From Octopus vulgaris (taxonomy: Eukaryota), in contig OX597822.1 of NCBI GenBank assembly GCA_951406725.2, positions 89,032,001-89,096,000 of the forward strand: 64,000 bases of DNA, given 5' to 3'. The notes beneath the pieces were generated by a model. The model made no database searches. It saw only the letters and a list, made by a program, of their open reading frames with translations, and was not told where the DNA came from. Below, piece after piece: positions 33,091 to 60,953 of the stretch (position 1 is the stretch's first letter; every line of letters begins with the position of its first letter). The position numbers and the translations under genes were made by a program.

Positions 33091-33192
33091 CCTGGTTTCC
33101 AAGGATTTTTAGTGGTGGTAGCTTTTCTTTGCGTGCCGTGGATGTTGTTGGTAAAACCTTATCTGCTTAAAAAGAAGCACATGGCACAACAG
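33091..33192 (+). CDS. ATP6V0A1: V-ATPase a exon, 102 nt: PGFQGFLVVVAFLCVPWMLLVKPYLLKKKHMAQQ
   Basis: ctcag|CCT ... CAG|gtaagc; CVPWMLLxKP motif. Confidence 0.97.
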
Positions 33193-33340
33193 GTAAGCAT
33201 TAGTTCTTTTATAATGTAAATTATTTTTCCTTTTGTATTATGTCTTATGATAGTTAAACAAAAACTTTTAAGCTTGAAAATAGAAATCAATACAAACAAG
33301 TATGTACATGTAGACATCGGTCCCATCATATATACATATG

Positions 33341-33379
<39 letters not shown>

Positions 33380-33417
33380 TCACACATATAACATACACAC
33401 ATATGTATATACATATG

Positions 33418-33929
33418 CCGTAAATCCTCGAGTATAATCAACATTTTTTCCCCCAAATTTAAAGGTCAAAATCCTTAGTGTGTACTATATACGAGGTTAA
33501 AAATGAAAATTATTTTCTAAGCAATGTCTGAGTCTCTATTTGCTGTCCGGCAATGTTTATTCAGACGCATTTTGTAATGTCGGGTGCAAAAATACCTTAA
33601 GCTAAGCCTGAAAGCAATGAAGTCATAAAAGAATCATTCATGACTTGCAGTAAGCAACATTTTTTAAACGTTATTACTGTTATTTCTTTATTTTCTGCAA
33701 ACAAAATGCACAAAAAAGCTACATGTTTGTATTATGTTATATGTACAATAATAATAAAGGACGTTTACCATATACATTTTACAAACCAAGGATGTTATAT
33801 AGACCTCCTTGACTCAATTTAGAGAAGGGGTGCATATTATACACAAGGTTTAGGTTTTTCAGAGGTACAGCTCCCTAAAAATCCCCTGCGTATTATACTC
33901 AAGGGCGGACTATACTCGAGGATTTACGG
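33418..33929. mobile_element. pogo/Tc2-like non-autonomous DNA element
   Basis: Perfect 19-bp TIRs ccgtaaatcctcgagtata / tatactcgaggatttacgg; TA on the right flank. Confidence 0.85.
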
Positions 33930-34185
33930 TATGTACACCTGTTTACATATACATGCACCTTAAAGTATAAGTGGGATGTAACTATAAGAAAATAAATTAT
34001 ATACTCCATATATATTTTTATATATCTGTATATAAACCTGTGTATATGTATGTATGTATGTAAAAATATATATATATATAGCTACATGTGTGTATAACTA
34101 TATACTTTTATCCATGTATATGCTTATGTACATATGCATGTGTTGTGTGTATATGAGTGAGTGTGAATATATATATATATGTATA

Positions 34186-34235
<50 letters not shown>

Positions 34236-34428
34236 TTTTAAAAAATTAAAAATTTAAAGGTTTAAAAATATATAAATTTAAAAAATATAAAAATTTATAA
34301 ATATAATTTAAAATTAAAATTTTATATTTTCTATATTATATTAATTATATTTATTTTTATGTTTTGGTTTATGTTTTTCACTGTTTGATTTGCCTAATAG
34401 TGGTTTTATCTCTAATTTAATTTATATA

Positions 34429-34487
<59 letters not shown>

Positions 34488-34519
34488 GCACACACGTGTA
34501 TATATATATATATGTTATA

Positions 34520-36390
34520 TGAAAATCATAATGATGATGAGCTTATTGTACACAGTGCTCATGTGCACTACAACTGGTTGGAAAAGAGTTGAAGAGGGGA
34601 TAGTAAACAGTTGTATAAATCAAGTGAAGACAGCAGTGAAGGTTAGAAATACTTGCTCAGTACACAGACTAAAACATAGAAAGGCAGAAATGTGAACTGT
34701 AAAAGAGTCATCAAGAGGAAAGGGTGCCATGTAATGTCAGGAGTAGTATTGTTAAATTTCAGGAAACATGGAATTATTTAAAGATACAGTGCCCTGACAG
34801 CTAACAATTGACATGGGTTGTTTATTCCATACTTTGACAATTCTGGGCATGAAAAAATGTTTCTGAAAATGCTGGCTGCTGCACTGTTTTTGATTCTATA
34901 AGTAACCTTAGGTATTAGAGGTATTGAATTCAACGAGGCTGCCAAAATTGTTGTCACTTGCTAGATGTTGAAACTTAAAGTGTGTCGATACCCAGAGAAG
35001 CAATATGTTAAAGATATAGTAAGTGAAAAGCAGTTGATGTATGCCTTGCGGCACATCTTTGGTAGATAAATATTCTTGGGGTATGAGAGTAGAAATGCAA
35101 ACTTTTGTGTTCATGTAGCATAGCCATATATAGCTTTAAATAGATAACTGGTGAACAGATGGCAAGGTCTTACTAACTGATGCTAAAATACCTGCAGCGT
35201 TTTTGACAATTTTTGAAATGTGGTTCATCCAGTGCAGATTATTGCTAAGAATAATGCCTATGTCACCTTCATTGGCAGACTTCTTATGGCTGATGTTGTG
35301 GAGGGAGTTGATAAATTCTGAGTTTTCACTTCCAGAATGTATAATGGTGCGTTTGTCTATAGCTAGGTGGTGTTGGCAGTTAGTAACCCATTGCTGCATT
35401 GTATCCAAGTCAGATCACAGCAAAGATCAGTAGCATATAGTATCTGTTCTTTTTATTTTGAGGTACAGATTAATGTTGTCTGCATATTTCAACACACTAA
35501 CATGTTTTGGATTGATATTTTATTAATAAGCAAAAGACAACAGAAGACCAAGAATAGATCCCCATGGGACTCCAGATGTCAATACATAGGGTGCGGAATG
35601 TTGTCCTAATACTATGGCTACTTCTTTTTAATTGAGAACGAAAGACTTCAACCAGTTATAAAGATTAGTCTTCATTGCCCACTACAGAGAGTTCCACCAT
35701 AAGTTGTTCATGTGAAACAGCATTAAAGGCTCTGGCAAAGTCAAAATAAATAACATCCATCTATTAATCATCATCTGTGATTCAAGTGATGCCTTCAAGA
35801 AATTTGATGAGTTGGCTCGAGTTAGTGGGTAAATCCAAATTTAATGATTGAATAAGGTTATGATAGTTCCAGGGTGTCTTCCTGACACAGGGCTCTAATA
35901 TGACAATACAGCAAGTGAGACTGGATGATTATTGACAGGTGATGTGCAGTTACCCTTTTTGGACTGGGGATTGATGCTGGCAATTTTTCACTGTTCTGGG
36001 GTAACAAAGAATTAGAAGACAAATTAGAGAATTGGTGCAATACAAAAGGCCATCACATTTGAGAAACAGTAACATCATCAAGACTAAAGGAAGCACAGTT
36101 GTGCATATGTTTGAGGTGTCATCACAGCATTGCAGGAATAACTTCAATAGGGGTTATGGAATTTGGTATCAGCAGAAGTGAAGATGGTACATTCAGATTT
36201 TCAACTAGAAAAATGCCAGCCATTTGTTAATAAGTTCTATGCATTCTTCAGGGTCATCAGTAATGTGACCTATGGTGGGGATTGTGGAGAGGGCTGACTG
36301 GAAGGTGAGGTTTCTCTTTCAAATACACACATTTTCAGAACATCTTATGATCAGGGTTGGCTAGTATGTATTGTTCAGATTTAAGTACTA
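34520..36390 (-). mobile_element. Decayed CR1/L2-group LINE reverse transcriptase region
   Basis: Minus-strand fragments MDVIYFDFARAFNAVSH, TSGVPWGSILG and DIGIILSNNLHW..HISKIV; many stops; boundaries approximate. Confidence 0.8.
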
Positions 36391-36705
36391 CTTCAGTTTC
36401 ATGTATTCGTACTGTGTATGTGTGCACATTATATGTATGATTATATTTTATTCTAGTTTTCTCTTACCCTCACTTTTTGTTTAAAGGCAGATTCTAAAAT
36501 TTATTGAATATCATGTGACCCTCCAATAATAATTTTTGAACATTCCAGAAAAATTTAATTTTTACTAAATAATGAAAAAACTTGATTATTAAAGTTAGTT
36601 TGATAAGTGCCATGCATGAAACTCATTCCACTTCATTACATTTATGTGTGCAATATGTTTATCTGCATGTGTGTGTGTGTGTGTGTGTGTGTATTTCTAA
36701 ATATA

Positions 36706-37545
36706 CAAGGTCTGATCAATAAGTATCTGGACTGTTGCCATAGTAACAAAGCTAATGCATGCAGAGTGAAGCCGCTTGACAAAGGTTGACTTTGAATTCT
36801 GCTGTGCACTTCTGCTGTTTACAGCAGTGCTTGGAAGGAAGGTGTGTAGTGCGTGATTGTCGCATTCACCATGAGAAAGAAAGTTGTAGGCCTATGCAAA
36901 GTTTTAGAAAGTGTATGCAGAGGAGTGTATGAGTCACACACAAGTGTACGAGTGGTTCAAACGTTTCTAAGATGACCGGAAAATGCTGATATTGACAAAC
37001 ATTCTGGGAGATCCACAACTAGTAGAACTGAGAAAACATCATAGATGTATGTGCAGCTTTGAGGGGAAATTATTGAGTCACCATCCATGAATTATCAGAG
37101 GATGTGCAGATTAGTTACAGTTCAGTTCAGTCCATTATCGCTGAAGATTTGGGTATGAGATGTGTGCCAAGTTGGTGCCAAAACTGCTTTCAGCTGACTA
37201 AAAAGATATTTGGGTTTCAGTTGAACAAGATCTTCTTGAATGTGTCGAGAATGATGAAAGCGTTTTGAAAACTTTGCGTAGACCTCTGAACAGGTATTGC
37301 CAAGCTTTTGGCATATTTGATGCCGATTCTCTGCTCAACTTCCTGTGTCATGGTCAATGCAACAATCACATGCAACACACCTTTGTTCCAAGCACTGCTG
37401 TAAACAGCAGAAGTGAGCTAGAATGTTAAAACTTAGTGCACATGCCCAGCAGCGATCAAGGTCAATCTGTGCCAAGTGGCTTCACTCTGTGTGTTTTAAC
37501 TTCATTACTGTGGCAACAGTCCATATACTTATTGATTAGACCACA
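36706..37545 (+). mobile_element. Internally deleted mariner with long (~170-bp) imperfect TIRs
   Basis: ggtctgatcaataagtatctggactgttgcca / tggcaacagtccatatacttattgattagacc; internal MSHTQVYEWFKRF and KLVPKLL remnants. Confidence 0.85.
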
Positions 37546-38148
37546 TATATGTATATATGTTCATGAATTCTTGAAAATAGCAATACTTTCTACTTTTCAG
37601 AATACATTTTATTGATATTTACTCCAGACATATTAGTTTTAAAATCTTAGCTTTGTTTCGTATTATGTTTTCTCTTTTTTGTTTTCTTTTGAATTCATTG
37701 AAAATTTACATTATTTACATTTGACGGCTATTTGTACTCATCTTGTTTGTTGTTAACACACTGTCAAATGTAAATAATGTACATAATTCTTCATCTCTCA
37801 AATACAGAACTGTATCATTGAAAATTGATACTGATTTTGTAGTTCTTTATTGTTTTGATTTTATGTTCCAGAAATTTCCTCCTACGAATTACCTCTAAAT
37901 TTATGGAAAGTTATTTGTAAAATTCTTAAATAAGTATTAAAATTGCAGTTCCTATACGTGAAGAAAACAGAAGCAAACCATATGATTTCTTATTTGTAGG
38001 TAGCTATGCAAAATTCATTTTGCATATCAACAAAATTACTCACTCTCAATATGAAAACTAGCAGCTTTAGTTGCTAATGCTGTGCCTGGCGAATCTATTT
38101 TAATATCTTTTTTTGCTTTAATTAACAATGTTTCTTGCCCTCTTGCAG

Positions 38149-38352
38149 CAGACCCCTCAAAGTAGCAATAGACTACTGCAGCAAAATGGTAGCCCCCACC
38201 ATCCTGACAACTCTTCCACAGGGATGATGCAGTCACCACCACCTCCGCCACACCTTCAACAACAGCAGCAGCTGCAGGAGGAGGAGCAAGCGGAGGTTAT
38301 ACACTTTGATGTAACTCAGTCCCAGTCTTTTGGTGATGAAAGTGAAATGAAG
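38149..38352 (+). CDS. ATP6V0A1: Candidate cassette exon A of the cytosolic loop, 204 nt, phase 0-0, Q/P/E-rich: QTPQSSNRLLQQNGSPHHPDNSSTGMMQSPPPPPHLQQQQQLQEEEQAEVIHFDVTQSQSFGDESEMK
   Basis: Pyrimidine tract plus cag|CAG tandem acceptor; open frame in a GC-richer island; AAG|gtgtct donor is weak; length divisible by 3. Confidence 0.65.
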
Positions 38353-39449
38353 GTGTCTACTACTACTACTACAACTGTCTGACAACTTTTACCAGTTCTT
38401 CTTCTTCTTCCACCACCACCTGCTCCTCTAACTGGGCTGCAATCCTCACACTGTGGCATGCTCTTATTTGTGTTGTTGTTTTTTTGTATTAGTCTTATTA
38501 TTGTTATTGGTTTAGTCTTTGACCTGTGATATGTAGTTTTTTCATAATGTTATCGACAATGATCAGAATTTCTCATTTCATTCTTTTTTTCTCCATTACA
38601 TTCTGCCCTACCATAAGTCTGCAAATAAACATTTCAGTTTATTATGGAATGACATTTATATGATATTGTAGACTTTTATTTGACCTTTTCTTCTCTGTAT
38701 AGCAGCTGTTATTATATCATTTGGGTTTCACATTTTAAGAGCAGTGGATTTGCAGAATTGGTAAACTGTAGGACAAAAATAGTTTGGATTATTTGGTTAT
38801 ATTTCTTAGTATACTGGGTTCAAATCCTACCCAGGTTGACTTTGCCTTTCACCTTTCAATAAAATAAAGTAAAAGTCAAGTACTCATGTCCATATAATTG
38901 ATTATATCTTTCAAAATGATGTCGAAAAGCTAAAACTGTTAAAAGAATTAAAACAATAAACTACTATTGAGAAGAGAGCTATAACTAGCCTGTTGGAAAG
39001 GCAGAATGATTTGTATACCTGGCCTGAACTTAATAACCAATAGTCCAGTCATTTATATAATCAGATACTTTAGAGAGACAAAGTTCACTCCAGTACTTAA
39101 TAGAAGTACTATATATTCTTTGAGTTTTTGTTAGTGTAACTAGCATCTAATTCATTTCTACAATTCAACTGAACTCTTCTCATGAGCAATTGAAACAGAG
39201 ATGAATATTCCTTGCTCAGAGGTTGTTAGAACAAATCAGCCATTAATTACAGAAAGGTTGATCATTCTAGCCCTGTTTCTCATTTTTGCAATGAAACTTT
39301 GATTTACTCACACCTTCTATTTGCTGTGCATTATTTGGAGCTAAAATTCTTTTCTAGTGTTAATGGTTTTCAATGAATATTATTAAAGTATCTTGCGTGT
39401 TTCACAGATTTACCCCACTTCCTTTTTCTCTCTCTTTCTCTCTCTCTTC

Positions 39450-39503
39450 ACATATATATATATATATTCATATATACATACATATATATATATATATTCA
39501 TAT

Positions 39504-39556
<53 letters not shown>

Positions 39557-39575
39557 CATTATATATATATATATT

Positions 39576-39619
<44 letters not shown>

Positions 39620-39632
39620 TATACATACATAC

Positions 39633-39673
<41 letters not shown>

Positions 39674-39682
39674 CATACATAC

Positions 39683-39723
<41 letters not shown>

Positions 39724-39765
39724 TATATACATATATATATATATATTCATATACATACATACATA

Positions 39766-39798
<33 letters not shown>

Positions 39799-39825
39799 TA
39801 TATACATATATATATATATATTCAT

Positions 39826-39862
<37 letters not shown>

Positions 39863-39896
39863 CATATATACATATATGTGTGTGTATATATATATA
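39450..39896. repeat. Compound (TA)n/(TACA)/(TTCA) microsatellite
   Basis: Direct inspection. Confidence 0.97.
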
Positions 39897-40260
39897 GGCG
39901 TAGGAGTGGCTGTGTGGTATGTAGCTTGCTTACCAATCACATGGTTCTGGGTTCAGTCCCACTATGTGGCACCTTGGGCAAGTGTCTTCTACTATAGCCT
40001 CGGGCCGACCAAAGCCTTGTGAGTGGATTTGGTAGACAGAAACTGAAAGAAGCCTGTCGTATATATGTATACATATATATATATGTATGTTTGTGTATCT
40101 GTGTTTGTCTTCCCAACATCGCTTGACAACTGATGCTGGTGTGTTTATGTCCCCGTGACTTAGCGGTTCGGCAAAAAAGACCGATAGACTAAGTACTAGG
40201 CTTACAAAGAATAAGTCCTGGGGTCGATTTGCTCGACTAAAGGCGGTGCTCCAGCATGGC
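39897..40260 (+). mobile_element. tRNA-derived SINE truncated in its 3' tail
   Basis: tggctgtgtgg and ggttcagtccc boxes; ends at ggcggtgctccagcatggc. Confidence 0.9.
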
Positions 40261-41180
40261 CGCGAAATATACAAGTGGGCTGAGAAGAATAGCATGCAGT
40301 TCAATGCTGAAAAGTTTCAAGCTTTGTGCTATCAGCATGCAAAACTAAATGCAATGCCCAATAAATACACTGGACCTGGGGGGATTGCAATCCCAGAGGC
40401 ACAGTCAGTGCGAGACCTGGGCATTTACATGAGTAATGATGCAACCTTTCATGTGCATGTTGCTAAATTGGCAATGAAATATAGGCGGCTGACTGGATGG
40501 ATTCTTAGAGCTTTTAGAACAAGAGACCAGGAAACCATGATGGTCCTCTGGAGGACACTTGTCCTAAGCCACTTTGACTATTGCTCTCAGCTATGGTCAC
40601 CAGCCAGTGTCAAATTAATCTCAGAACTTGAGGCAATCCAACGAAGCTACACGAAGATAGCCTCTATGCAGCATATAAGCTATTGGGAAAGACTCAAGAG
40701 ATTAAGACTCTATTCCTTAGAGAGTAGGCAAGAAAGATATGCCATAATATCCATCTGGAAGATCCTGGAAGGACTTGTCCCAAACTTTGGCATCAAGAGT
40801 TACACAAATACTAGAACTGGGCGCCACTGCATAGTGCCAAGGACTCCAAATTTGCCATCAAGATGTAGGACAAGATACTGCAATGGCCTGGGCTTCAGAG
40901 GTCCACAGTTCTTCAATATCCTCCCGAAGGACCTGAGAGACCTGCATGGGGTGGATGTAGATGTTTTCAAAATAAAGCTGGACCTCTTCCTGTCAGGTGT
41001 CCCAGATGAACCAACTTCGTGGCAGGAGGTGCAGATGAGGGCAGCTGCATCAAACTCTCTCAAGCACCAAATGTCAATTGCTAAAAAGCATTCGTGAAGT
41101 AAAATCATGTAGCAATACCAAATGGCGGTGCCCCAGCATGGCTACAGCTCGTGAGCTGAAACTAGATGAAATTAAAAAAA
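40261..41180 (+). mobile_element. 5'-truncated CR1/L2-group LINE with an open C-terminal ORF of ~278 codons
   Basis: ORF 40246..41097: WAEKNSMQFNAEK, VRDLGI, DYCSQLWSP, LEAIQR, YWERLKRLRLYSLE motifs. Confidence 0.9.
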
Positions 41181-41235
41181 TAGAAATATATAGATATATA
41201 CATATACTCATATATATACATATATATATATATTG

Positions 41236-41291
41236 ATTTAAAGCAGCAGAAAATTCGACAAAATTTTGTTGAATTTTCTGCTGCTTTAAAT
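41236..41291. repeat. 56-bp spacerless palindrome with one mismatch
   Basis: atttaaagcagcagaaaattcgacaaaa|ttttgttgaattttctgctgctttaaat. Confidence 0.95.
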
Positions 41292-41433
41292 AAAGCATAT
41301 TACTCTACCACTGGTATTTGAGTACTCTTTTTTCCACCTTGTTTCACATTTATGTGTTTACTCCAGTATATATATATATATATATATATAATTTCACATA
41401 TATGTATTCATATATATATATTCACGTGTATTC

Positions 41434-42140
41434 AATGGTGATTTTCTTGAAGAGGTTGAGAGTTTCAAATACCTTGGCGCCATCATTACAGCCACTGGTC
41501 AAAGTGAGGCTGACATTAAAACATGAATCACCCTCTCTCACCAAGCCTTCAACCGACTCAATGCATGACTCTGGTCAAGATCTGAGATCCGACGCGCCAC
41601 CAACGTATGGATCTACCAAGCACTAGTGCGAACGATTCTCCTTTACGGCAGCGAGTCATGGCCGATGAGGGTGGAAGATATTAAGCGACTAGCATCCTTC
41701 GATCACTTCTGTCTACACCACATCCTTTGTGTCCGATGGCATCACTTTGTCTCCAACAATTCGGTGCGACACCAGTGCAAAATCACCTCCCTCTGACAAG
41801 TCATCCTAACAAGACGTCTGCGTTGGTTGGGTCATGCCCTCTATCGTCAACTGGGAGAATTCATCTACGAAGCAATTACCCCAGCTCCCCTTCAGGGTTG
41901 GCGAAAGTGATGTGGTGGACAACAGAAAACCTGGCTGATGACAGTCAAGGCTGATCTGGTACCCAACCTAGGTCCCCATGTCTAGGGTGTTCGCTGCTGG
42001 AATAAGGAGTGGTTGGAGATCACGCGGTCGTTAGTCTCAAATCGCCAGGCCTGGTCGGTGTTTGTGAGAGAAGCAGCATTGAGGATGAATGAAGCCAGCT
42101 CAACCCACCCCGGGTGAATGTTGTCTCAAGTCAAAAGTCA
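41434..42140 (+). mobile_element. RTE-clade LINE 3' fragment, second family
   Basis: Translates FKYLG, IYQALVRTILLYGSESW and RRLRWLGHAL; short caagt-type tail. Confidence 0.85.
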
Positions 42141-42545
42141 ATATATATGTATTCAAACATATATTCATATATATGGTGCCAAAGGCTGAAACAATTAGAA
42201 AAATATCAAAGGCTTTTGCTGACTAACAGTCAGTGGGACTAGATGGTATACTATCAGTAAATGACATAAAGAAAAACTAGGGATTGTAAATAAATTTAAA
42301 GGTTACATGTGATAAAGATGATTTGAGAAGCAATAAATGGGGCACCAAGGAGGAAACATACATGTACACACATACACACACACATATATATGTGCATGTA
42401 CACACACATACATGTACATAATTCCTCTCATGTCAAGTCATATGTAAACATAATTTAACATTAAAATGAAGGATGGTCCAATACTTTTCAGTAGAGTACA
42501 TATTTGTTAATGGTTGACAGAAACTTTGAAATTTTGTTTTCAAGG

Positions 42546-42765
42546 TGTTATGACTACATACCAAGGTAGCCATGTGTTATGACTACAATGTAGATGAGAG
42601 CTGTTATTATGACCACACCATAGATTGCCAATATATGACTACATTATAAATGACTATTGTTATGGCTATACTATAGAAAGTTTATCATTATGATTATATT
42701 ATACATGGTTGTTCTGTTGTTATGACTATCCTATAGATGGCTCTCTGCTGTTATGATTTTACTAT
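42546..42765. repeat. Degenerate ~30-bp minisatellite, about 8 units, core tgttatgacta..tagatg
   Basis: Direct inspection. Confidence 0.75.
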
Positions 42766-43802
42766 ACACCACAATGGAATCTATGTAAATAAAAAATAAC
42801 CCAGAAGCTGAGGAAATTAGTGGTGGTTTATGTTGGCAAGAATTATTTGTTAAAGTTTATGATACTCCAGATAAGTTTGTTTACCATGGATAGAAGAGGA
42901 ATCTGATACTTTGCTACTGTCTTTTGTCTGTGTAGAAAGAGATTTTTCAGCTGAAATATTCCACTTCTCTCCATGTCATAGAAAATAATCCAAATTAATG
43001 AAAAGTCTCCTTATAGTTTGCTGATGGTTATTGTTAGTGAGGTTATCTTTAGTTTAATTTTATAAATTGGATATATCTTCATGTTCATTTGGTTCTCTAT
43101 ATGTGAAGAATAACTCCAAGGAATATTTAATGGAAAAAAATATAAACTCCTTAACTTGATAAAAACACAAAACAACAAAAACAAGCAATATTTTGTAAGC
43201 TAAAGTGTATATTTAAGAGAATTCATCCAGCTCATTAGCTTGTTATTTATTTCATTCACACTCAGAAGTAGGGAAAACAAGTTTTATTCCTAGGAGCCTC
43301 AGAATATTGATGAATTATTTCAGACAGATAATCTCATTGGGCTCTGTACCATGTTCAGCCAATTTTGCTACCTTTTCACTTTGAGTTTATGGTTATTAAT
43401 CTTTCTTTTACCATATCATCATCATCATCGTTTAATGTCCGTTTTCCGTGCTAGCACGGGTTGAACGGGTATGTATCTGTAGAAATACTGTTTCAGTTTT
43501 TAGATTAACAACGAACTTAGTAAAGTACTTTTGACATTATTAAGTTGGTATTTGGAACAAACTTGACATGAAAATCTGGTGGAAGGTTTAATTTGGTTAA
43601 AACAGGAAGTTTGTGTCATAGAACCAGGGATGATTTCAGGTGAGTTGGTATCAAAAGGGTTAAAAATGATGGTATTGGTTATCATAACATTATACAAAAC
43701 ATTGTTATTACCCCCAGCAAAGCTATATATTTTTTAAAATCTAAACTATATCAGTAATGGTGATGATGTATCCTTTACTTTCTTCTCTTGGTTGGATTTT
43801 AA

Positions 43803-44028
43803 CCCTTTGAACCCATGAGTTAGCAGGTGTGATTTTGTTTGACTATAACCACTAGAAGATGGAAAAGTGGATGACAACATGGTTTTGTGTTTACATCTGA
43901 AAATAACAGTGTTTATGCCAGTTAGTGATCTGTAAACACAAAACCATATGGCTACATGCTTTCTGTCTTCCTAGGCTATAAATCAGCTGAAATTGTACCT
44001 GCTAAATTGTACTTGCAAGTTCAAAGGG
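43803..44028. mobile_element. Fold-back piggyBac-like MITE
   Basis: ttaa|ccctttgaac ... gttcaaaggg|ttaa; internal arms atggttttgtgtttaca / tgtaaacacaaaaccat. Confidence 0.85.
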
Positions 44029-44573
44029 TTAACCAAATAGATCTTTGCCTATGAAGAAACAGTGAGGAAAGACAGTTCAACTAAACTACATTTCTTTTAC
44101 AAATATGTTATTTTTTGTTTCATTTCTCAAACTTTTTGCTAGAAATATATTTCATTGCTGTCTTAGAAATACCTTTAAAATTAGCATTTATTTTAATATT
44201 TATTTTCTTTTTGTTTTTATAATTCCCTTTTTAGTTTTAAATTTCTTTTGTAGCTTTTCCAATATTTTAACCTTTGTTAAATAATTATTTTTCTATTTTT
44301 CAGGTTACTTTCTTGATGATTTCAATTTAAACACTTGTATTTTAGCCTCTTTCTTATTTTGTTTTGTTGCCGAAATATTAATTGCATCCATTTTATTTCA
44401 CATTGTATAGTTTTGTCTCTTTTTAGCCAAATTTTTCTACTTATTATTATTAGTATTAGATATTATAGTATATTAAGTTATTTTTGTTTTTCTGTTGTCC
44501 TAAATTGCTAATTCTAATCAGTCTACTTTTCTAAACTCCTATTATATGTACACATATACATGTGTGTTTGTGT

Positions 44574-44613
<40 letters not shown>

Positions 44614-44642
44614 TATACACACACACATACATACACACACTT

Positions 44643-44676
<34 letters not shown>

Positions 44677-44996
44677 TCACACATACATACACACATGTAT
44701 GTATATTTAAATTTATATATGTATACATATACATATGTATATTCACATACAGATGTCTATAGATACAGTTATATACATACACTCAGATATCTTCAGTAAT
44801 TTCGTTGGATTCCAGATTTTACTTTTTTACACAGAGATCTGACTTGATTCCTAATGTTTGTATTTATTGAACAAAAAAAAAAAGTTTCCTTCAACAGAAT
44901 TGATGTGCCACAAAAATCTTCACCATTTTCTTTCCCTAATTTCCATTGCTGCATATGTTTTTCTTCTGCTATTAATGGCTTGGTTGGTTCCTACAG

Positions 44997-45119
44997 TTTG
45001 AACACCAGCAGCTGTCAGTTCAGAGTGGAGATTTGGTAAACCACGACCAAGATGCCATCATCTATGCGGCTGAAAATCCAGAAGACACCCTCCACTATTC
45101 TGGCCAGGAGCCTGAGGAG
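44997..45119 (+). CDS. ATP6V0A1: Candidate cassette exon B of the cytosolic loop, 123 nt, phase 0-0: FEHQQLSVQSGDLVNHDQDAIIYAAENPEDTLHYSGQEPEE
   Basis: ttcctacag|TTT ... GAG|gtgaac; open frame, coding-like composition, acidic end typical of the segment before the FDF motif. Confidence 0.8.
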
Positions 45120-45207
45120 GTGAACAAGTTTTACTAAACACACCACTAACTTACATCAATTGTTAAGTCTTTCTTTCATAATAGTCTCTGCAGCTAACCA
45201 CTTTTTA

Positions 45208-45208
<1 letters not shown>

Positions 45209-45290
<82 letters not shown>

Positions 45291-45303
45291 CTCTTTCTTT
45301 CTC
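45209..45303. repeat. (TCTG)n(TCTT)n tetranucleotide repeat
   Basis: Direct inspection; ~90 nt downstream of candidate exon B. Confidence 0.95.
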
Positions 45304-47660: not shown

Positions 47661-47698
<38 letters not shown>

Positions 47699-51590: not shown

Positions 51591-51635
51591 GGGGTACACA
51601 CTAGTGGAAATCCTGCCCCTGCTGTACCATTACAG
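51591..51635 (+). CDS. ATP6V0A1: Candidate 45-nt cassette exon C, phase 0-0: GVHTSGNPAPAVPLQ
   Basis: ttttgcttctgcataactag|GGG ... CAG|gtaatt; GC-rich 45-nt island in AT-rich DNA; open frame. Confidence 0.6.
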
Positions 51636-51802
51636 GTAATTCTTGTTGAACTTATAGGTGTCTGATACCTTTATTTTAAATTATTATATGTCAGTACAGT
51701 CTAATTGCTTTAGTAGTTGTATGACCAATAAATACTTTTGGTTACACATGCACCACCAAGCTTAATGCTACCACACTCCTTTCTCACAAACAAATGCTTC
51801 AT

Positions 51803-54800
51803 ATTTATTTATTTATGCATTTATTTTTGTTATGCAATCCCCTTAAGATTATATGAATCAAACTAAGTGTCCCTGTAACCAATAATTGCTTTGATTGTAA
51901 GAAACGAAATTCAGAATACTTTCATTGTTCAGAAAGTGTTAATTCATATTCACTTACTTTGTTACTGGTTTTAACCGCATTCTGTTGTGAGCCATCTGGG
52001 GTACTTACAATAACAAGGTATAATTTACCTGGAATTTTGATTTATTCAAAGGGAATTAAATTTTCCTGTTAATATAGTGAAAATATGCCCTTAATTTTCT
52101 TTTATCCTTTTCCTTTTACCTTCAGTTGGCATGGTTTCTATATAAATTTGCTTCTCTTCAGCATGCGTTTTACAATTTTTTATTGTAACCCAAATGCATC
52201 TGATGCTTGCTATTGAATAGCTTCTTGTCAATTCTTTTTACATGGATTATTGTTCTGAAACAGTCAATTAAACCCCAAAATATTCTTCCTGTCTGATACA
52301 CCTTGTGGAATCTTATTGTAAAGCCATTTCTTGTAACCATAGTCAACCTCTTTATGCTATAGAGGTTGGCCCTCATAGAAAATTTGGTTCTTAAATTCAA
52401 GAAGGAAAGCATGAATATAACAGTAATGATGATGATCATAAAACATAACCTTCAATGATTGTTCTGTTCATGCTATTGGTTACTTTTAAAATTAATTTCA
52501 TTGTAGAAAACTCGCTAATATCATAATTAAGAATCAATATTATAACATATCAAGAACTACTTTCTCATTAAGATCAGATTCATATTATGAACTTGTTACT
52601 TTAATTTATTAGTTTTTCCTCCAAACATATACATGTTAAAGCATATAAATTTGTGTTGAATTTGTTTTCCATTCACTTGCAGTTATATTGTTCTTATCTC
52701 AAAGGCAACATCTAACCATAACCTAGATATTTATCTAAATTAGTGATAACAAGCAGGTCACTATTTGTTAGTTTTAGATTAGCCAAATCAGTACAGCACT
52801 AGCCTTGTGATATTTAGTTGCAGTGCTACTGCTGAAGTAAACTTTGCCCTTCTTCCTTCTGGAGTTATTAAGTAATTTATCGATGGAGTATAGGATTTGA
52901 TTTACTCAACTATACTTCTTGCCAAAATGCATGGCCTCATGCCAATGTTAAAAATGTATATTTTTTATATTAAAAAAAGTAAATTTAAAATATTTACTAA
53001 TTTATCTTTTGTTTAAGTTTGTGGGAATTTTTGAAATTGAATATAGGTATTTTGAAGAATTCATATCATTGCATGGTTGAATGAGTTTCTTTGAACACAG
53101 GAATTGATTTGGTAATATGACAGCTTAACAATGAAAATCTCAAGAGAAAGACATATTCACTGCTTGAGAAATTGTTGGCATATTTCTCCTGCAGCTGAGA
53201 GACAAGACTTTTGTCTTTGAAACCGGGTTAATAACTAGAAAATTATATGAAGGAAGAACCAAAATGACTAGATCATATTTAAGCTGAAATTCTAAAAGGA
53301 ATTTATTTCTACACCCTCTTTTATTGACTAATATAGCCAATATACCTAATATCTATACCACCTATACATCCAGCTATACTGTCATGTCCCTGTGATTCCT
53401 CTCAGTTTTTGTATTGCAGCCATTTATTTATTTATGCATTTATTTTTGTTATGCAATCCCCTTAAGATTATATGAATCAAACTAAGTGTCCCTGTAACCA
53501 ATAATTGCTTTGATTGTAAGAAACGAAATTCAGAATACTTTCATTGTTCAGAAAGTGTTAATTCATATTCACTTACTTTGTTACTGGTTTTAACCGCATT
53601 CTGTTGTGAGCCATCTGGGGTACTTACAATAACAAGGTATAATTTACCTGGAATTTTGATTTATTCAAAGGGAATTAAATTTTCCTGTTAATATAGTGAA
53701 AATATGCCCTTAATTTTCTTTTATCCTTTTCCTTTTACCTTCAGTTGGCATGGTTTCTATATAAATTTGCTTCTCTTCAGCATGCGTTTTACAATTTTTT
53801 ATTGTAACCCAAATGCATCTGATGCTTGCTATTGAATAGCTTCTTGTCAATTCTTTTTACATGGATTATTGTTCTGAAACAGTCAATTAAACCCCAAAAT
53901 ATTCTTCCTGTCTGATACACCTTGTGGAATCTTATTGTAAAGCCATTTCTTGTAACCATAGTCAACCTCTTTATGCTATAGAGGTTGGCCCTCATAGAAA
54001 ATTTGGTTCTTAAATTCAAGAAGGAAAGCATGAATATAACAGTAATGATGATGATCATAAAACATAACCTTCAATGATTGTTCTGTTCATGCTATTGGTT
54101 ACTTTTAAAATTAATTTCATTGTAGAAAACTCGCTAATATCATAATTAAGAATCAATATTATAACATATCAAGAACTACTTTCTCATTAAGATCAGATTC
54201 ATATTATGAACTTGTTACTTTAATTTATTAGTTTTTCCTCCAAACATATACATGTTAAAGTATATAAATTTGTGTTGAATTTGTTTTCCATTCACTTGCA
54301 GTTATATTGTTCTTATCTCAAAGGCAACATCTAACCATAACCTAGATATTTATCTAAATTAGTGATAACAAGCAGGTCACTATTTGTTAGTTTTAGATTA
54401 GCCAAATCAGTACAGCACTAGCCTTGTGATATTTAGTTGCAGTGCTACTGCTGAAGTAAACTTTGCCCTTCTTCCTTCTGGAGTTATTAAGTAATTTATC
54501 GATGGAGTATAGGATTTGATTTACTCAACTATACTTCTTGCCAAAATGCATGGCCTCATGCCAATGTTAAAAATGTATATTTTTTATATTAAAAAAAGTA
54601 AATTTAAAATATTTACTAATTTATCTTTTGTTTAAGTTTGTGGGAATTTTTGAAATTGAATATAGGTATTTTGAAGAATTCATATCATTGCATGGTTGAA
54701 TGAGTTTCTTTGAACACAGGAATTGATTTGGTAATATGACAGCTTAACAATGAAAATCTCAAGAGAAAGACATATTCACTGCTTGAGAAATTGTTGGCAT

Positions 54801-55040
54801 ATTTCTCCTGCAGCTGAGAGACAAGACTTTTGTCTTTGAAACCGGGTTAATAACTAGAAAATTATATGAAGGAAGAACCAAAATGACTAGATCATATTTA
54901 AGCTGAAATTCTAAAAGGAATTTATTTCTACACCCTCTTTTATTGACTAATATAGCCAATATACCTAATATCTATACCACCTATACATCCAGCTATACTG
55001 TCATGTCCCTGTGATTCCTCTCAGTTTTTGTAGTGCAGCC
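51803..55040. repeat. Near-perfect 1619-bp tandem duplication (51803-53421 and 53422-55040)
   Basis: Identical ORF pairs offset by 1619 (52170/53789 and 53140/54759); only two differences noticed by eye. Confidence 0.97.
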
Positions 55041-55845
55041 ATAGTTAATATTTAATCAAATTTTAGTTCTAAATAATATTTTAATTTTACTGTTTTATGT
55101 GATGACAACCAGTGGTAGTGTATTGTGTTGTTTGATTGGTATTTGTGTTTCTTTTAGAGTCATGACCAGACTTGATTAAGCAGTCTTCTAATCTGAACCT
55201 TTCCTGTTGTGACCATCCTGGGGTTTTTTTTAAAGACATTATAGCATGGCTTTGTGGGTATCAAGTTGCTTCATAAGCATAGGAGTTCAGGTTCTAGCCC
55301 ACTATGTGGCACTTTGAGCAGGTGTCTGCTATGGCCCTGGGCCAACCACTGCCTTCTAAGTGGAAACTGTAGGAAGCATGTGTGTGTGTGTATTTATATG
55401 TATATAATAAAAACAGTCATCAGTAAGGGAATACTAATCTGGGCAAAATACTTTATGAGCTCTCTGTCCATACACCAAGCTAACAATATTGTTTAGATTA
55501 GTAAAGAACTCTGCGTAGTCTTGTGGTAGAGTCTGAGGTTATAGCTTACTACCATTCTATATTGTAAATCTGTGGTTGTTCTCCAGTTATACTGGCTTTT
55601 ACACAGTGATATACAAGCCAAGGTATAAAATATGATCAGGACAAGGTATAAATAATGGTAATTAAAGAAAGGCGTCATAAAAACATCACTGTTTGTAATT
55701 GGGTTATCACTCATGAAAATATTTATACCTTTTCTTGTATATGTATGTATGCATATGTGCATGCATGCATATGTATGTATGTATATGTATTTATATGTAT
55801 GTGTGTATGTATGTATATATGTATATATATATATGTATGTATGCG

Positions 55846-55895
<50 letters not shown>

Positions 55896-56324
55896 CATAG
55901 TGAGAGATAGAGAGTATAAAAATGATAGATTATCCTGGTGGATACCATATTATCTCACAAATTGATAGAGATGCTGGCTATCCACCACGATGCTCCAGTT
56001 ACATAGCACTCAAGTTTAATAGAGATACTGATACTGGTAAGCTTCACTTGTTGAGTGGTTCTGTGTTCCTATTCAGTACTGCAAATACTTCATAGAGTAT
56101 ATAATTGATAATGAAGAGGAGAATGGTATTCAGGATGCTTGTTTGAACCAGTTCACTTTGAAAACATCATAAGTGATGGATCCTTGATGAAATTGCAGTG
56201 ACTAGTATGCATAATTGCATACAGAGTAATATGCAGTCCTGCAGTTAAAACATTTGTAGGTCAGTATTGTATATGCTGTAATATCTGGCAGTGTAGGTTA
56301 TGGTCTAGTCACCCATATAGTTAA

Positions 56325-57135
56325 CCAGGTGGTACATGAAGGAGTCATACCCAATGACTGGTGTAGCAGCACCATAGTCAACTGCTAGAAGGGTAAAGAT
56401 GACACCTTAGAAATAATTACAGATGTATCAAATTGTTGGATCAGGTGATAGAAGTTACAGAGAGGGTCATAGCCCAACTAATTAGGGAGAGAGTTAGTTT
56501 AGATGAGATACAGTTTTGTTTTGTGCCAGGGAGAAACACTGCTGATCCTATATTTCTGGTTAGACAGTTGCAGGAGAAATACCTAGCCAAAGCTAAACCT
56601 CTGCACTTGGGCTTTGTTGACAAGATTCTCTGATCCCTTATCTGGTGGTCAATGAGGAAACTAGGGGTAGACAAGTGGTTGGTGAGAGCTGTACAAGCCA
56701 TATACAGGAATGCTGTCAGTAAGGTGAGGGTTGACAGTGAATATAATGAAGAATTCATGGTACAAGTAGAGGTTCATCAAGGATCAGTCCTCAGCCCCTT
56801 CTTGTTCATTACAGTCCTCCAGGCAATAACAGAGGAATTCAAGACAGGCTGCCCCTGGGAGCCCATCTTTGCTGATGACCTTGTTATTATAGCTGAATCA
56901 CTACCAGAACTAAAGAAGTTTCAGGTGTGGAAGCAAGGTCTAGAATTGAAGGGCCTTAGAGTCAACCTAGCAAAAACCAATGTCTTAGTAAGTAGGAAAG
57001 TAGACAAATTACAAATCCCTTCAGGTAGACAGCCCTGCTCAATCTGTAGAAAAGGCATAGGCAGAAACTCCATAAGCTGTACCCGGTGTAAGCTTTGGAC
57101 ACATAAGCAGTGCAGCAACATCAGAGGAAAGTTAA
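56325..57135 (+). mobile_element. RTE-clade LINE RT fragment with downstream Cys-rich motif
   Basis: QFCFVPGRNTADPIFLVRQLQEKY, VHQGSVLSPFLF, FADDL and CSIC..CTRC..H..C. Confidence 0.9.
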
Positions 57136-57674
57136 TAGGGAGTATTCACCAAAAAAGCTAATGGTGTCTGTTTGGTGGTCCAGCACTGGTGTCATCCACT
57201 ACAGCCTCATGAGACCTGGTATGTCAATTACAGTGGATGTATATATCAATCAGTTGGATGAAATAATGAGTGGACTTGCAATTAAACAATTGAGATTGGT
57301 CAATAGAGATATGTCAATTCTCTTGCAAGACAATGCTCGACCACATGTTGCACAAAGAACGCTACTCAAGCTGCAAGAACTGAACTTGGAAGTACTCTGT
57401 CATCCTCCATATTCACCAGACCTTGCAATAATTGACTATCACATTTTCCAGGCATTGGACAACTTTTAGAAGATGCAAAAGCAGCCTTTCGTGATCTCAT
57501 CACCTCTTGCTCTCCAGAATTCTTCGCTGCTGGCATAAATAAGCTACCGATAAAATGGCAAGATTGTGTTGATAATTTAGGTGCATTTTTTGATTAACTG
57601 CATTGCTTTTTGTTGAGATAAAGTAAAATTAACTTTCAGTTCAAAATCGGACATTTCATTCTTAATGGCCTGAT
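57136..57674 (+). mobile_element. 3' half of a mariner (DD34D)
   Basis: KLMVSVWW, LLQDNARPH and HPPYSPDLAIIDYHIF in ORF 57110..57469. Confidence 0.9.
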
Positions 57675-57906
57675 ATATCATTGCTATTATGTTAAACTGT
57701 CGAATGTTCAAATTTTGCCAAATGCATTTTTTTTCAATATTTATTTTTGCTTGTAGTAGCTGGTTCTTTTATCTCCAGCTGCTTCAGATGCCAAGATATC
57801 AAAAATTGTCAAAGTGTAATATAACAGTTTTGCTATATAATGGTTAAACTTTTATCATTTTCCGAAAAAGCAACATTTGTTGCTATTATGCACTTTTGCA
57901 TAATAG

Positions 57907-57959
<53 letters not shown>

Positions 57960-58310
57960 ATATATATATATTGCAAATTGTGATGAGGTAGTGGAAGAGT
58001 TCATCTGAGCCAACAGTGCTTCTTACATTATGCTGAGCAGACAACTACTAGATCAGCAGTGTGGAGATCTGTATGAAGAGAATAAGTGCAACACATCCAT
58101 AGGGGTGACATCCGAGTTTGTGTAATCAGCTAATGAAAGATTCACTATGACTTGAGCTCCCAGTTCAAATTCATAATAATAGAATTAGAAGGCATCAGAG
58201 AGCCATGGAAATCGATGAAAGCAGAAAAAGAGAAAATATGTGTGTAAAGAAATGTGTGTGTGTGTGTGTACGTACATATATATATATGTATATGTATATG
58301 TATCTATGTA

Positions 58311-59359
58311 CAGGGTGCATAAAGTATTTGAGGACATAACTTTTTTTGGTCATTGCTGCATTTTTTTCTAATTCTTTATCATCTTTATTTCAGAAAATAA
58401 TTATGGCAGACCTTTAGTTTACTAAAGAAATGAAGAAGCATGATGTTATTGTGGTTATAGAGGCTGGGCATAGCAATTTAGAAATATCTTGATTTTTAAA
58501 AGTTGCTAGATCTTTTGTCTACATAGTTTGTAAGGAGTTAGAGACTGAAGATGGAAACGTATCACCAGTATCAAAGCACAGAGAGCATTCTAAACACTCT
58601 GAGATCATCAGAATACCTGAATTTATCCAGCAAGTTCAACAGACCATTGATTACAATTCCAGAAAGTCCATGAGGTCAATTACAAAAGATCTCCATGTGT
58701 CAGAAGGAACAGTCAGAAATGTTGTCCACAAAGACATCATATATAGGTCTTATATGATAAGGAAAGGTCAATTTATGTCAGAAAAAACAAAAGAAAATCA
58801 CTTCATCAGATCTCAAAGGCTCTTAAACAAACTGAAAAATCCAGCAGAAGATTTGATTTGTTTTTTTCTCAAACGAGAAAAACTTTGACAAAGATCAACA
58901 AGTGTATGCAATGGCAGGCCATATATGTTTCAGTGAGACTCTGCACTATCACACATGGCTCTAGTAACACAAGAATGGATGGCTGAAAATTTTCATGATC
59001 TCATAGCCCCTAACATTTAGCCTCCTAATTCCCCAGATTCCAATCCATTGGACTATTACATGTGGAGCATTGTTGAGAGAGAGGCCAATGAACATGCCCG
59101 TAACACCAAAAATTCTTTGAAAGCTGCCATAGTCAGATTAATGTCCAAAATGAACCAGGACCATTTGATTTGAGCATGTAGATACTTTAGATATCATATA
59201 GAAGCAGTTGTTGAAGCTGAAGGTGACTATTGAATAATATTATAGAAAAGAAGGTTTATTTTTATCCTCATAGCATATTTTAATAAATAAAGTTATTATC
59301 TGTTATTTTATATATTTTTTTTTATAAACATAAATCTGTCCTCAAATATCTTATGCACC

Positions 59360-59362
<3 letters not shown>
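58311..59362 (+). mobile_element. maT-type (DD37D) Tc1/mariner element, internally deleted
   Basis: TA|cagggtgcataa..tatttgaggaca / tgtcctcaaatat..ttatgcaccctg|TA; FQ*DSALSH..PPNSPDSNPLDYYMW has 37 residues between the Asp codons. Confidence 0.9.
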
Positions 59363-59411
<49 letters not shown>

Positions 59412-60953
59412 GTTTGTATATATGTATGTGTATTCCTATTGTTTGTGCATGATTGTCATATTTATATTCCCTGTTGACAGTTCATCCTGTCACTGTGTAC
59501 TTTCAAAGACAAGCAAAACAAAAGATCCCCTACTTAAAAAATGAGTAACGCTTGATGACAGGAAACATCCAGCTGCAAGATTTGCCTCAAATAATTTACC
59601 ATTCAGCCTATACTAGCTTGAACAAACAGATGTAAAGGAATGAACAAGTGTATCTGGGGACTGTATTATCCAATATGTGTTACCTTTTTCCTAAGCTGAT
59701 AAGGTACCTCTTGGTGGAGGTTTCTAGCAAGTCAAGTGACCGCATAAAAGCCATCTTATTGGCTCACATTGGTACTTGCGTTACAGCTTGATAAATTGTT
59801 GTACAAATACAACTGAAGTGCATGCTGAAAATAAAACTAGAAAGTTCTAAGTAACATAGAAGTGGAGTAAACTTAACCATTGGTTGCCATTTCATTGCAG
59901 ATCATCTCAATATATAACTTGTATGCTTTCTAGGTTCATTTGAAAAGTAACTGCCCTTTAATTACCATGATCTATTCATAATTCATATTATATAGTAGAA
60001 TTGTCATCTAAACATTAATTTTTGCTGCATTTCTATTTAAGGCCATTATTGGTCAGAATTGACTGCATATCTGCTGCTGGGAAGATCCTCTCCATGCCAT
60101 TGATGTTTTCCAAGGAAAGGCAAAGGTTGATATAGCTTGGTATCTGTGTTTTCCTAGTGAACTCAGAACATAAGGAGCTGGAGCAAATACTACAAGATCT
60201 TGTCTGACAATTTTATACACAAGCTCAAATATATACCAAAACCTGATTATACCCTTATTTACTTAGACTCAAACTAAATCCAATCATTTATGGTTATTTA
60301 ATTTGTCAGTCACTTGCTACTCCTTGCATTACTAAGTAAAACAATTATTAGTGTTTAAATAAGAAATATAAACGAATGTATACGTTCTTTTCTCTCATTT
60401 CCTTTGGAAATTCAAACAACCCTCATGTTCCTTTATAAGTTTCTATTTACAGAAATATTACAGGTAAGTATATCTGCACTGTGCAATTAAGAAAGTTTTT
60501 CATAACACTTAGAAAAAAAAGTTCAACATATGTTATTATTTCTACAAATTGATTCCTTATTTGTCATGCATGATTGCACACAAATATTTAGAGCTGAAAG
60601 CCAAGATAGGAAAAGTAGCATGTTGTTGTATGTAGCAGTTTTTTTTTTTAGTTTTAATTGTTGTATTTTGATGTTGTCAGTGTTGAGGATATCTGCCTAT
60701 AATTGCATCCATTATTAACATAAAAATTAACTATTATTCTGCCAGAAATTCTTTCTCTTTTTCTTTCATTAACTTCTTCATTTATTCATAAATAAAACTG
60801 AAGCAAATTAACAGTAACAATTTGTAAATTATAAGCTATCTGATTGCCTTCAACTTAAAAAAAAAAAAATTATCACATGAAAAAATATGCTTTACATATT
60901 GGCTATTTAAATGTTGTTTCTATGTATTTATGTATTCATTTGCCAATTTTCAG

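What the first reader, a model, noticed from the sequence alone, without database searches (positions are those of the whole stretch)
33193..60953. Modular cassette-exon system for the cytosolic loop of V-ATPase subunit a
Seen: the flanking exons (..HMAQQ and DFDFAD..) meet in phase 0 across 27.8 kb, far longer than any complete intron between the other exons (0.1-4 kb). Inside are at least three unrelated open phase 0-0 islands with splice signals: 204 nt (38149), 123 nt (44997) and 45 nt (51591), plus a possible 24-nt one (60440). Known: this loop is the variable part of subunit a, and mammalian ATP6V0A1 has an alternatively spliced 18-nt exon just before the FDF motif that has been linked to neuronal isoform targeting. 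Inference: A (..FGDESEMK) and B (..GQEPEE) each end acidic as if either alone could precede DFDF. They may be mutually exclusive or combinatorial, letting one gene make several compartment- or tissue-specific proton-pump isoforms where vertebrates use four paralogs.
Basis: partly seen in the sequence, partly recalled or inferred. Interest (0 to 1): 0.8.

Follow-up and report, generated by a model that had tools for sequence, protein, structure and literature searches.

The report
Either-or loop exons, octopus proton pump
The octopus gene for subunit a of the vacuolar proton pump has two exons for one cytosolic loop that appear one at a time in every cephalopod transcript model I could see; similar pairs occur in mussel and ribbon-worm annotations, so the choice is likely ancient and likely yields tissue-specific pumps, as a worm gene is known to do.

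Summary
The window holds an Octopus (vulgaris/sinensis group) V-ATPase a1-like gene. Islands A (204 nt), B (123 nt) and C (45 nt) are exons already in RefSeq models of two Octopus species.

Of 26 cephalopod proteins that span the loop, 7 carry A, 15 carry B, 2 carry B+C and 2 carry a cuttlefish extra exon plus B. None carries A+B, neither exon, or D. In one probable RNA run, A and B are contigs of 262 and 181 nt, exactly the two arms expected of an either-or bubble. Bivalve and nemertean orthologs show a similar pair; in the nemertean the two are clearly homologous, so A and B are likely old tandem duplicates, not unrelated cassettes.

D has good splice signals but no transcript support. Tissue specificity, a targeting function and 'replaces four paralogs' are untested. 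Mutually exclusive exons in subunit a are known from C. elegans unc-32, and loop splicing from vertebrate a1. My 10 literature searches found no paper on this pair; the scan's notes held no earlier V-ATPase case. Verdict: real, new member of a known kind.

The parts
33091..33192 (+). Constitutive exon U: TM6 and start of cytosolic loop 3, ends ..HMAQQ, phase 0, strong donor
   Evidence: tblastn of RefSeq isoforms
38149..38352 (+). Mutually exclusive exon A (68 aa, Pro/Gln-rich, acidic end); weak donor; alternative NAGNAG acceptor at 38152 removes one Gln
   Evidence: RefSeq O. sinensis X1-X3, O. bimaculoides X1 and X4, O. vulgaris model; cuttlefish-type Logan ORF P0034; 262-nt contig in run X4
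38353..38490 (+). Intron after A with GCATG (+104) and UG-rich TGTTGT (+119, +122): candidate Rbfox/CELF sites, weak evidence
   Evidence: expected 0.39 and 0.14 per 250 nt, so not significant alone; motif identities recalled
44927..44996 (+). Intron flank before B, conserved with a cuttlefish-type genomic ORF
   Evidence: 0 of 400 random intron windows score as high
44997..45119 (+). Mutually exclusive exon B (41 aa, conserved LSVxSGD core); weak donor
   Evidence: RefSeq O. sinensis X4/X5, O. bimaculoides X2/X3, Argonauta, Sepia pharaonis, 10 Logan ORFs; contigs in runs X4 and X12
45120..45179 (+). Intron flank after B, conserved with cuttlefish-type ORFs; ACTAAC at +26 (candidate STAR/Quaking site)
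   Evidence: 1-2 of 400 random windows score as high; ACTAAC occurs 4 times in 27.8 kb; motif identity recalled
51591..51635 (+). Optional cassette exon C (15 aa), seen only after B
   Evidence: RefSeq O. sinensis X4 and O. bimaculoides X2, identical peptide; no raw-read test
60440..60463 (+). Candidate microexon D (24 nt, or 11 nt from 60453, which would frameshift): unresolved
   Evidence: only CAGGTAAGTAT in the window, 74-nt AG-free zone, TGCATG at +104; in 0 of 26 cephalopod proteins
60954..61074 (+). Constitutive exon Dn: DFDFAD.. into TM7

Best explanation
Exons A and B of the octopus V-ATPase subunit a1-like gene are spliced one at a time between the TM6 exon and the TM7 exon, so cytosolic loop 3 comes in two versions; the pair likely arose by an old tandem exon duplication and is likely chosen by tissue-specific splicing factors. 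Shown: both exons are transcribed and spliced singly, and C can be added after B in annotation. Shown by the sequence: exclusivity cannot come from steric crowding (6644 nt apart), frame surveillance (both 3n) or splice-site type (both GT-AG). Inferred: U's strong donor chooses between two exons with weak donors under RNA-binding-protein control. A, the upstream exon with GCATG and UG-rich elements behind it, is predicted to be the neuronal or restricted form, as upstream exon 7a is in worm unc-32. B, with conserved intron flanks and an ACTAAC element, is predicted to be the broad form. Inferred: swapping the loop leaves the proton path unchanged and alters sorting or binding partners on the cytosolic side, as splicing does for rat a1-I.
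For: Annotation: 26 cephalopod proteins span the loop (of 34 fetched; 8 do not span it): A 7, B 15, B+C 2, E+B 2, A+B 0, neither 0. Reads: run X4 has a 262-nt contig on 38146-38353 and a 181-nt contig on 44993-45120, each with 30 nt before and 28 nt after the exon and G as the next base. In a k=31 simulation of 11 isoform sets, the 3 that give this pattern all have A and B leading to the same G-starting exon; sets with A+B, B+C branching or D do not. In run X12 the B contig starts 30 nt before B and continues 1165 nt past it. Conservation: octopus-cuttlefish A scores 181 and B 161; octopus B vs mussel B' 82 and 42, vs nemertean B' 35 (p 0.001 to 0.009). Logan ORFs P0034 (A) and P0021 (B) match at 149/150 and 126/126 flanking residues. 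RefSeq Lineus: 2 A', 6 B', 0 both of 8 spanning; RefSeq Dreissena: 7 A', 1 B', 0 both of 8. Lineus A' vs B' score 68, p 0.001. Precedent: unc-32 7a neuronal, 7b elsewhere (PMC3585155); a1-I sorted to nerve terminals (PMC3812966, introduction).
Against: Three GenBank 'hypothetical protein' models of bivalves (P0154, P0155, P0038) join A' and B'; I read these as gene-predictor artefacts but did not show it. Contigs drop rare forms, so low-level A+B or skipping is not excluded. The clean bubble is from 1 of 4 runs laid: X1 showed unspliced pieces over A and X24 no listed piece on A or B. The flank letters of the contigs were not displayed, and the runs are only guessed to be RNA. The geometry cannot tell A|B->Dn from A|B->C->Dn or from added skipping. 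Orthology of octopus A to bivalve A' is weak (scores 31-35, p 0.01-0.06) and to nemertean A' not significant (24). The protein sample is biased by the queries used. No tissue labels were available. Motif evidence is weak. In the worm, any of three major UNC-32 isoforms rescues the neuronal mutant (PMC3585155), so isoforms may be interchangeable.
Confidence: 0.72

Rival explanations
1. A, B and C are real and exclusive, but the loop is a tolerant linker: the isoforms are interchangeable, or the switch mainly keeps expression up in different cell types.
For: Loop length and sequence vary greatly among subunit a representatives. Worm isoforms rescue one another (PMC3585155). A is low-complexity, and C has no match outside Octopus among the proteins held.
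Against: B keeps an LSVxSGD core from octopus to nemertean, and both exons are kept in cephalopod, bivalve and nemertean annotations. B's intron flanks are conserved.
Confidence: 0.2
2. A and B are independent cassette exons that can be combined; A+B forms exist but are missed by annotation and contig simplification.
For: Both are 3n, so A+B would be in frame. Three bivalve GenBank models join A' and B'. Sepia models carry an extra exon E before B (2 of 26).
Against: 0 of 26 cephalopod and 0 of 16 RefSeq bivalve/nemertean loop-spanning proteins have both. X4 contig lengths do not fit any of the three simulated A+B sets. No A-to-B joint among the 15 joints displayed (44 more were not shown).
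Confidence: 0.07
3. D is a real neural microexon at the position of the vertebrate 18-nt exon, either in frame (24 nt) or as an 11-nt poison exon that triggers decay. This would add to the main reading rather than replace it.
For: Perfect U1-complementary donor, unique in 64 kb; 74-nt AG-free zone like true acceptors (73-116 nt for U, A, B, Dn; 36 of 1597 intronic AGs have 70 or more); TGCATG at +104 and GCATG plus a UG-rich run at +155-158.
Against: In 0 of 26 proteins. AGGTAAG[TA] also occurs twice in about 33 kb of other introns. The AAG acceptor is weak (0.85). The peptide is hydrophobic and 21% GC, unlike the acidic vertebrate insert. In X4 and X12 the base after B is G, not the T or A that starts D.
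Confidence: 0.35
4. The islands are chance open frames in a transposon-swollen intron.
For: 1462 open phase 0-0 islands exist in the interval; retroelement remnants and a 1.6-kb duplication inflate it.
Against: Annotation in several species, spliced contigs and cross-species coding conservation for A and B; identical C in two species.
Confidence: 0.01

Closest known systems
C. elegans unc-32 (V-ATPase subunit a) mutually exclusive exons 4a/4b/4c and 7a/7b (PMC3585155, PMC4165533)
   Same: Same protein family; two separately spliced sites in one gene; 7a/7b are a homologous 3n pair (123 and 141 nt) whose double inclusion is not frame-policed.
   Different: 7a and 7b are 725 nt apart against 6644 nt here. 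Tissue pattern and regulators (UNC-75/CELF, RBFOX) are proven in the worm and only predicted here. From recall, not tested, 7a/7b encode TM6 and the start of the loop (the equivalent of exon U), so they would be a neighbouring, independent duplication. I could not fetch UNC-32.
Vertebrate ATP6V0A1 splice variants a1-I to a1-IV (PMC3812966 introduction; PMC2835735 table)
   Same: Same two variable loops. PDB chains of 838 and 832 aa are listed; a bird a1 model has a further insert at the start of the loop. The octopus gene also varies in the N-terminal loop.
   Different: Vertebrates add or omit short inserts around one constitutive loop exon; here the whole loop exon is swapped. The vertebrate loop exon resembles A and B only weakly (score 33, p 0.03-0.11).
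RefSeq models of Octopus sinensis (XP_036362339.1, XP_036362340.1, XP_036362341.1, XP_029641957.1, XP_029641958.1) and O. bimaculoides (XP_052826566.1 to XP_052826569.1)
   Same: They already contain A, B, B+C and the NAGNAG variant, matching the window's exons.
   Different: Automatic models with no statement on exclusivity, age, tissue or function; D is absent.

Membership tests
V-ATPase subunit a, a1-like | Full-length homology to V0 subunit a (PF01496) | tested here: met
   PF01496 on the hits; about 1230-1250 bits to mammalian a1 chains vs 1073 to a4
V-ATPase subunit a, a1-like | Cephalopod, bivalve and nemertean genes compared are orthologs | tested here: inconclusive
   Tree of 19 rows: cephalopods 100/100, bivalves 100/99, mollusc group only 83/85; Lineus unresolved within the invertebrate group
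Mutually exclusive exon cluster | Each exon is spliced singly between the same flanking exons | tested here: met
   RefSeq isoforms and Logan ORFs; contig geometry in X4
Mutually exclusive exon cluster | Double inclusion and double skipping are absent or rare | tested here: inconclusive
   0 of 26 cephalopod proteins show either, but contigs and models drop rare forms; 3 bivalve GenBank models join the pair
Mutually exclusive exon cluster | Exons are homologous (tandem duplication) | tested here: inconclusive
   Met in Lineus (68, p 0.001) and Sinanodonta (52, p 0.001, partly acidic runs); borderline in Dreissena (30, p 0.03-0.05); not alignable in octopus (19)
Mutually exclusive exon cluster | Enforced by steric hindrance, frame/NMD, U2-U12 incompatibility or docking-selector pairing | tested here: not met
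   6644 nt apart, both 3n, both GT-AG; no U-flank or Dn-flank duplex beat shuffles in 45 flank pairs. Regulation by proteins is left, as in unc-32
unc-32 exon 7a/7b cluster (orthologous event) | Same exon position in the protein | not testable with these tools
   No UNC-32 sequence came back; the papers read give no protein coordinates
unc-32 exon 7a/7b cluster (orthologous event) | Neuron-specific choice of the upstream exon through CELF and RBFOX | not testable with these tools
   Runs carry no tissue labels; only weak motif hints
Neural microexon (D; vertebrate a1 18-nt type) | Spliced into transcripts | tested here: inconclusive
   0 of 26 proteins; D was outside the stretch laid
Neural microexon (D; vertebrate a1 18-nt type) | Strong donor, long AG-free zone, downstream Rbfox motif | tested here: met
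   criteria recalled

The most novel reading that the evidence does not exclude
A duplicated loop exon, kept since the common ancestor of molluscs and nemerteans, switches cytosolic loop 3 of the proton pump between a neuronal and a non-neuronal form. With worm unc-32 and vertebrate a1 this would make three independent splicing solutions aimed at the same loop, marking it as a general sorting or regulatory handle of V-ATPases. Cephalopods would have added further modules: C, cuttlefish E and perhaps a neural microexon D.
Probability: 0.3. Interest if true: 0.62.

Novelty: new member of a known kind. Interest (0 to 1): 0.4.

Why it matters
Subunit a sets where V-ATPases go, and what its variable cytosolic loop 3 does is little known. 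Two natural versions of the whole loop in one gene, conserved between octopus and cuttlefish and probably across molluscs and nemerteans, give a clean swap experiment for that question. They could also serve as a marker of neuronal versus non-neuronal pumps in cephalopods. The isoforms are already in automatic annotations, and the principle is established in worm and rat, which limits the surprise.

Tried and rejected
No whole genome is held for this window, so octopus paralogs and the N-loop exons upstream could not be examined. None of 10 representative clusters looked up was named as a cephalopod paralog; this says little, because close paralogs are hidden in 50% clusters.

No run is on record as RNA ('no RNA holder listed'). 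In one search, X24 gave no listed piece on A or B and X1 gave unspliced pieces over A. The joint and loose-end tables were filled by repeats and cut. U, C, D and Dn lay outside the stretch laid, so C and D have no raw-read test.

The cuttlefish extra exon E and both N-loop variants were not found in the window (best scores 27 and 36). A docking-selector scan of 45 flank pairs gave 3 at 0 of 20 shuffles (A_up/A_down, A_up/C_down, A_down/C_down); with 45 tests and no cross-species data I do not count them. The inverted repeats listed were microsatellite pairs. Pfam found no family for A or B. The AlphaFold model was too poor to use (mean pLDDT 53). The profile search returned no recognisable UNC-32.

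Literature: 10 searches listed no paper on V-ATPase subunit a splicing in cephalopods or molluscs. Most subscription papers are not in the library, and bioRxiv supplements are closed; the exon tables of 10.64898/2026.09.05.749416, which includes O. bimaculoides, could list this event. The scan's own notes had nothing for this place and no V-ATPase case by words.
Full report
Identity. Exon A translated from the window matched one cluster, V-type proton ATPase subunit a1 of Octopus sinensis, at 100%. Exon B matched 7 clusters from Octopus, Sepia and Logan assemblies. tblastn of RefSeq proteins places 14 constitutive exons from 10892 to 62781 on the + strand. An O. vulgaris model fits as well as the O. 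sinensis ones, so I call the source an Octopus of that group. The protein is closest to mammalian a1 among solved structures. U encodes the last membrane helix before the loop and Dn runs into TM7, so the variable part is cytosolic loop 3 (topology from the figure legend of PMC8269383, passages seen).

Observation. All four islands are present at the stated coordinates, AG..GT-bounded, 3n and open. Open islands as such are common: 1462 in the interval. A crude score ranks D, A, C and B 2nd, 3rd, 8th and 11th. A and B have weak donors (1.6 and 3.6 against 8.6 for U).

Which combinations exist. Of 34 proteins fetched from the cephalopod clusters, 26 span the loop: A alone 7, B alone 15, B+C 2, a cuttlefish exon E plus B 2, A+B 0, neither 0, D 0. 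O. sinensis X1-X3 carry A (X2 lacks one Gln through a NAGNAG acceptor), X5 carries B and X4 carries B+C. O. bimaculoides has the same three classes. The sample is biased by my queries, and most entries are automatic models. Two Logan ORFs are independent of annotation pipelines: P0034 (A type) and P0021 (B type) agree at 149 of 150 residues upstream and 126 of 126 downstream of the loop and group with Sepia in the tree.

Reads. Four runs guessed to be RNA were laid on 37900-45200. In X4, one contig of 262 nt covers 38146-38353 and one of 181 nt covers 44993-45120, both without differences. Each has 30 nt before the exon and 28 nt after it. The few overhanging bases that fit (CAG or ACAG before, G after) are those shared with the end of U and the start of Dn or C. 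I simulated k=31 unitigs for 11 isoform sets. Three sets give 262/181 with 30/28 and next base G: A|B to Dn, A|B to C to Dn, and A|B plus skipping. None of the three A+B sets, the two B+C branching sets, the two D sets or B alone does. In X12 a 1318-nt contig starts 30 nt before B and continues 1165 nt past it, and a shallow contig has 30 nt before A followed by A's downstream intron, which I read as a partly spliced molecule. X1 shows unspliced pieces over A, and X24 shows nothing listed on either exon. The flank letters were not displayed and contigs drop rare forms, so this shows the two single-inclusion paths, not the absence of others.

Age and origin. Octopus and cuttlefish-type A align at score 181 and B at 161. 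The zebra mussel Dreissena has 8 RefSeq proteins spanning the loop: 7 with an A-like and 1 with a B-like segment, each followed by a 29-aa segment unrelated to octopus C. The nemertean Lineus has 8: 2 A-like, 6 B-like. None has both. Three GenBank 'hypothetical protein' models of bivalves join A' then B', the same order as in the octopus genome; they are either predictor artefacts or evidence against exclusivity in bivalves. B is traceable across all these taxa through an LSVxSGD core (p 0.001-0.009 against 1000 shuffles). A is traceable only weakly beyond cephalopods (p 0.01-0.06 to bivalves, not significant to Lineus), so its orthology rests mainly on position. Lineus A' and B' are plainly homologous (68, p 0.001), while octopus A and B no longer align (19). 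The simplest reading is one old tandem duplication with later divergence; independent duplication in nemerteans is not excluded, and the tree does not resolve Lineus.

Mechanism. A and B are 6644 nt apart, both 3n and both GT-AG, so steric, frame-based and spliceosome-type exclusion do not apply. No convincing docking duplex was found. That leaves regulation by RNA-binding proteins. The intron flanks of B are conserved with cuttlefish-type genomic ORFs (0 of 400 and 1-2 of 400 random windows score as high), and ACTAAC lies 26 nt after B (4 in 27.8 kb). GCATG and UG-rich runs lie 104-122 nt after A (motif assignments to Quaking, Rbfox and CELF are recalled, and those after A are not significant alone). 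In C. elegans unc-32, UNC-75 and RBFOX select the upstream exon 7a in neurons while other tissues use 7b (PMC3585155: passages, section 6 and supplement 1 seen; PMC4165533 and PMC12084633: passages). By analogy I predict A as the neuronal or restricted form and B as the broad one; I put this direction at about even odds. The functional step, changed sorting or partners, is inferred from rat a1-I being addressed to nerve terminals (PMC3812966, passages; the primary 2006 paper was seen only as a reference). Against it, any of three major UNC-32 isoforms rescues the worm's neuronal mutant.

C and D. C rests on two RefSeq models with an identical peptide and was seen only after B; it had no raw-read test. 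D has the window's only perfect U1-complementary donor, a 74-nt AG-free zone (36 of 1597 intronic AGs reach 70) and TGCATG at +104. But strong donors also occur twice in about 33 kb of other introns, and no protein carries D. A second acceptor would make it 11 nt and stop the frame 12 codons on. I leave D unresolved, at about 35%.

Comparison and novelty. The system works like the unc-32 clusters and sits in the loop that vertebrate a1 also varies. Whether it is orthologous to unc-32 7a/7b could not be tested; from recall those exons correspond to the neighbouring TM6 exon. The octopus gene also has alternative N-terminal loop segments, encoded upstream of the window, which mirrors the two-site layout in worm and vertebrates. 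The claim that splicing replaces four paralogs is untested. Ten literature searches (listings and abstract openings seen, plus passages of PMC2835735, PMC2941758 and 10.64898/2026.09.05.749416) found no description of this pair; closed supplements may hold it. Verdict: real, already in automatic annotation, apparently undescribed, probably ancient; a new member of a known kind, interest 0.4.

Noticed in passing
upstream of window position 10892 (outside the window); proteins P0001, P0017, P0018, P0036, P0164: A second alternatively spliced site, in the N-terminal loop: two different segments in Octopus and Sepia, and an analogous pair plus short inserts in Lineus. The exons are not in 1-10900, so that intron is also longer than 10.9 kb.
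   Followed up: partly
window 51803-53421 and 53422-55040: Near-perfect tandem duplication of 1619 nt (2 mismatches) just after exon C: a recent duplication or an assembly artefact.
   Followed up: partly
window 56823-56987 and about 39850-42300: Retroelement and other repeat remnants: a weak RVT_1 match at 56823 (E 0.012, below Pfam's cut-off) and very high multi-copy contig depth at 39850-42300. They explain part of the intron length.
   Followed up: partly
proteins P0020, P0030 (Sepia-type): An extra 20-aa exon E before B in cuttlefish sequences, not found in the octopus window; it faintly resembles the start of the Dreissena A-like exon (score 24, not significant).
   Followed up: partly
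window 38149-38152: NAGNAG acceptor (CAG|CAG) at exon A; RefSeq X2 uses the second AG and loses one Gln.
   Followed up: yes
window 45108-45119: An internal acceptor in B would give a 12-nt EPEE mini-exon and was the top-scoring island; no protein held shows it.
   Followed up: no
protein P0010 (O. vulgaris model, 1451 aa): The model appears to fuse subunit a with a neighbouring 624-aa Asteroid-domain gene (P0012/P0013 share its cluster); probably an annotation fusion. That gene is not in the window.
   Followed up: no
Dreissena proteins P0051, P0148-P0157: Two nearly identical subunit a gene copies, both with the A'/B' segments, and a 29-aa segment before the FDF motif in all 8 RefSeq models but not in the 2 GenBank models.
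   Followed up: no
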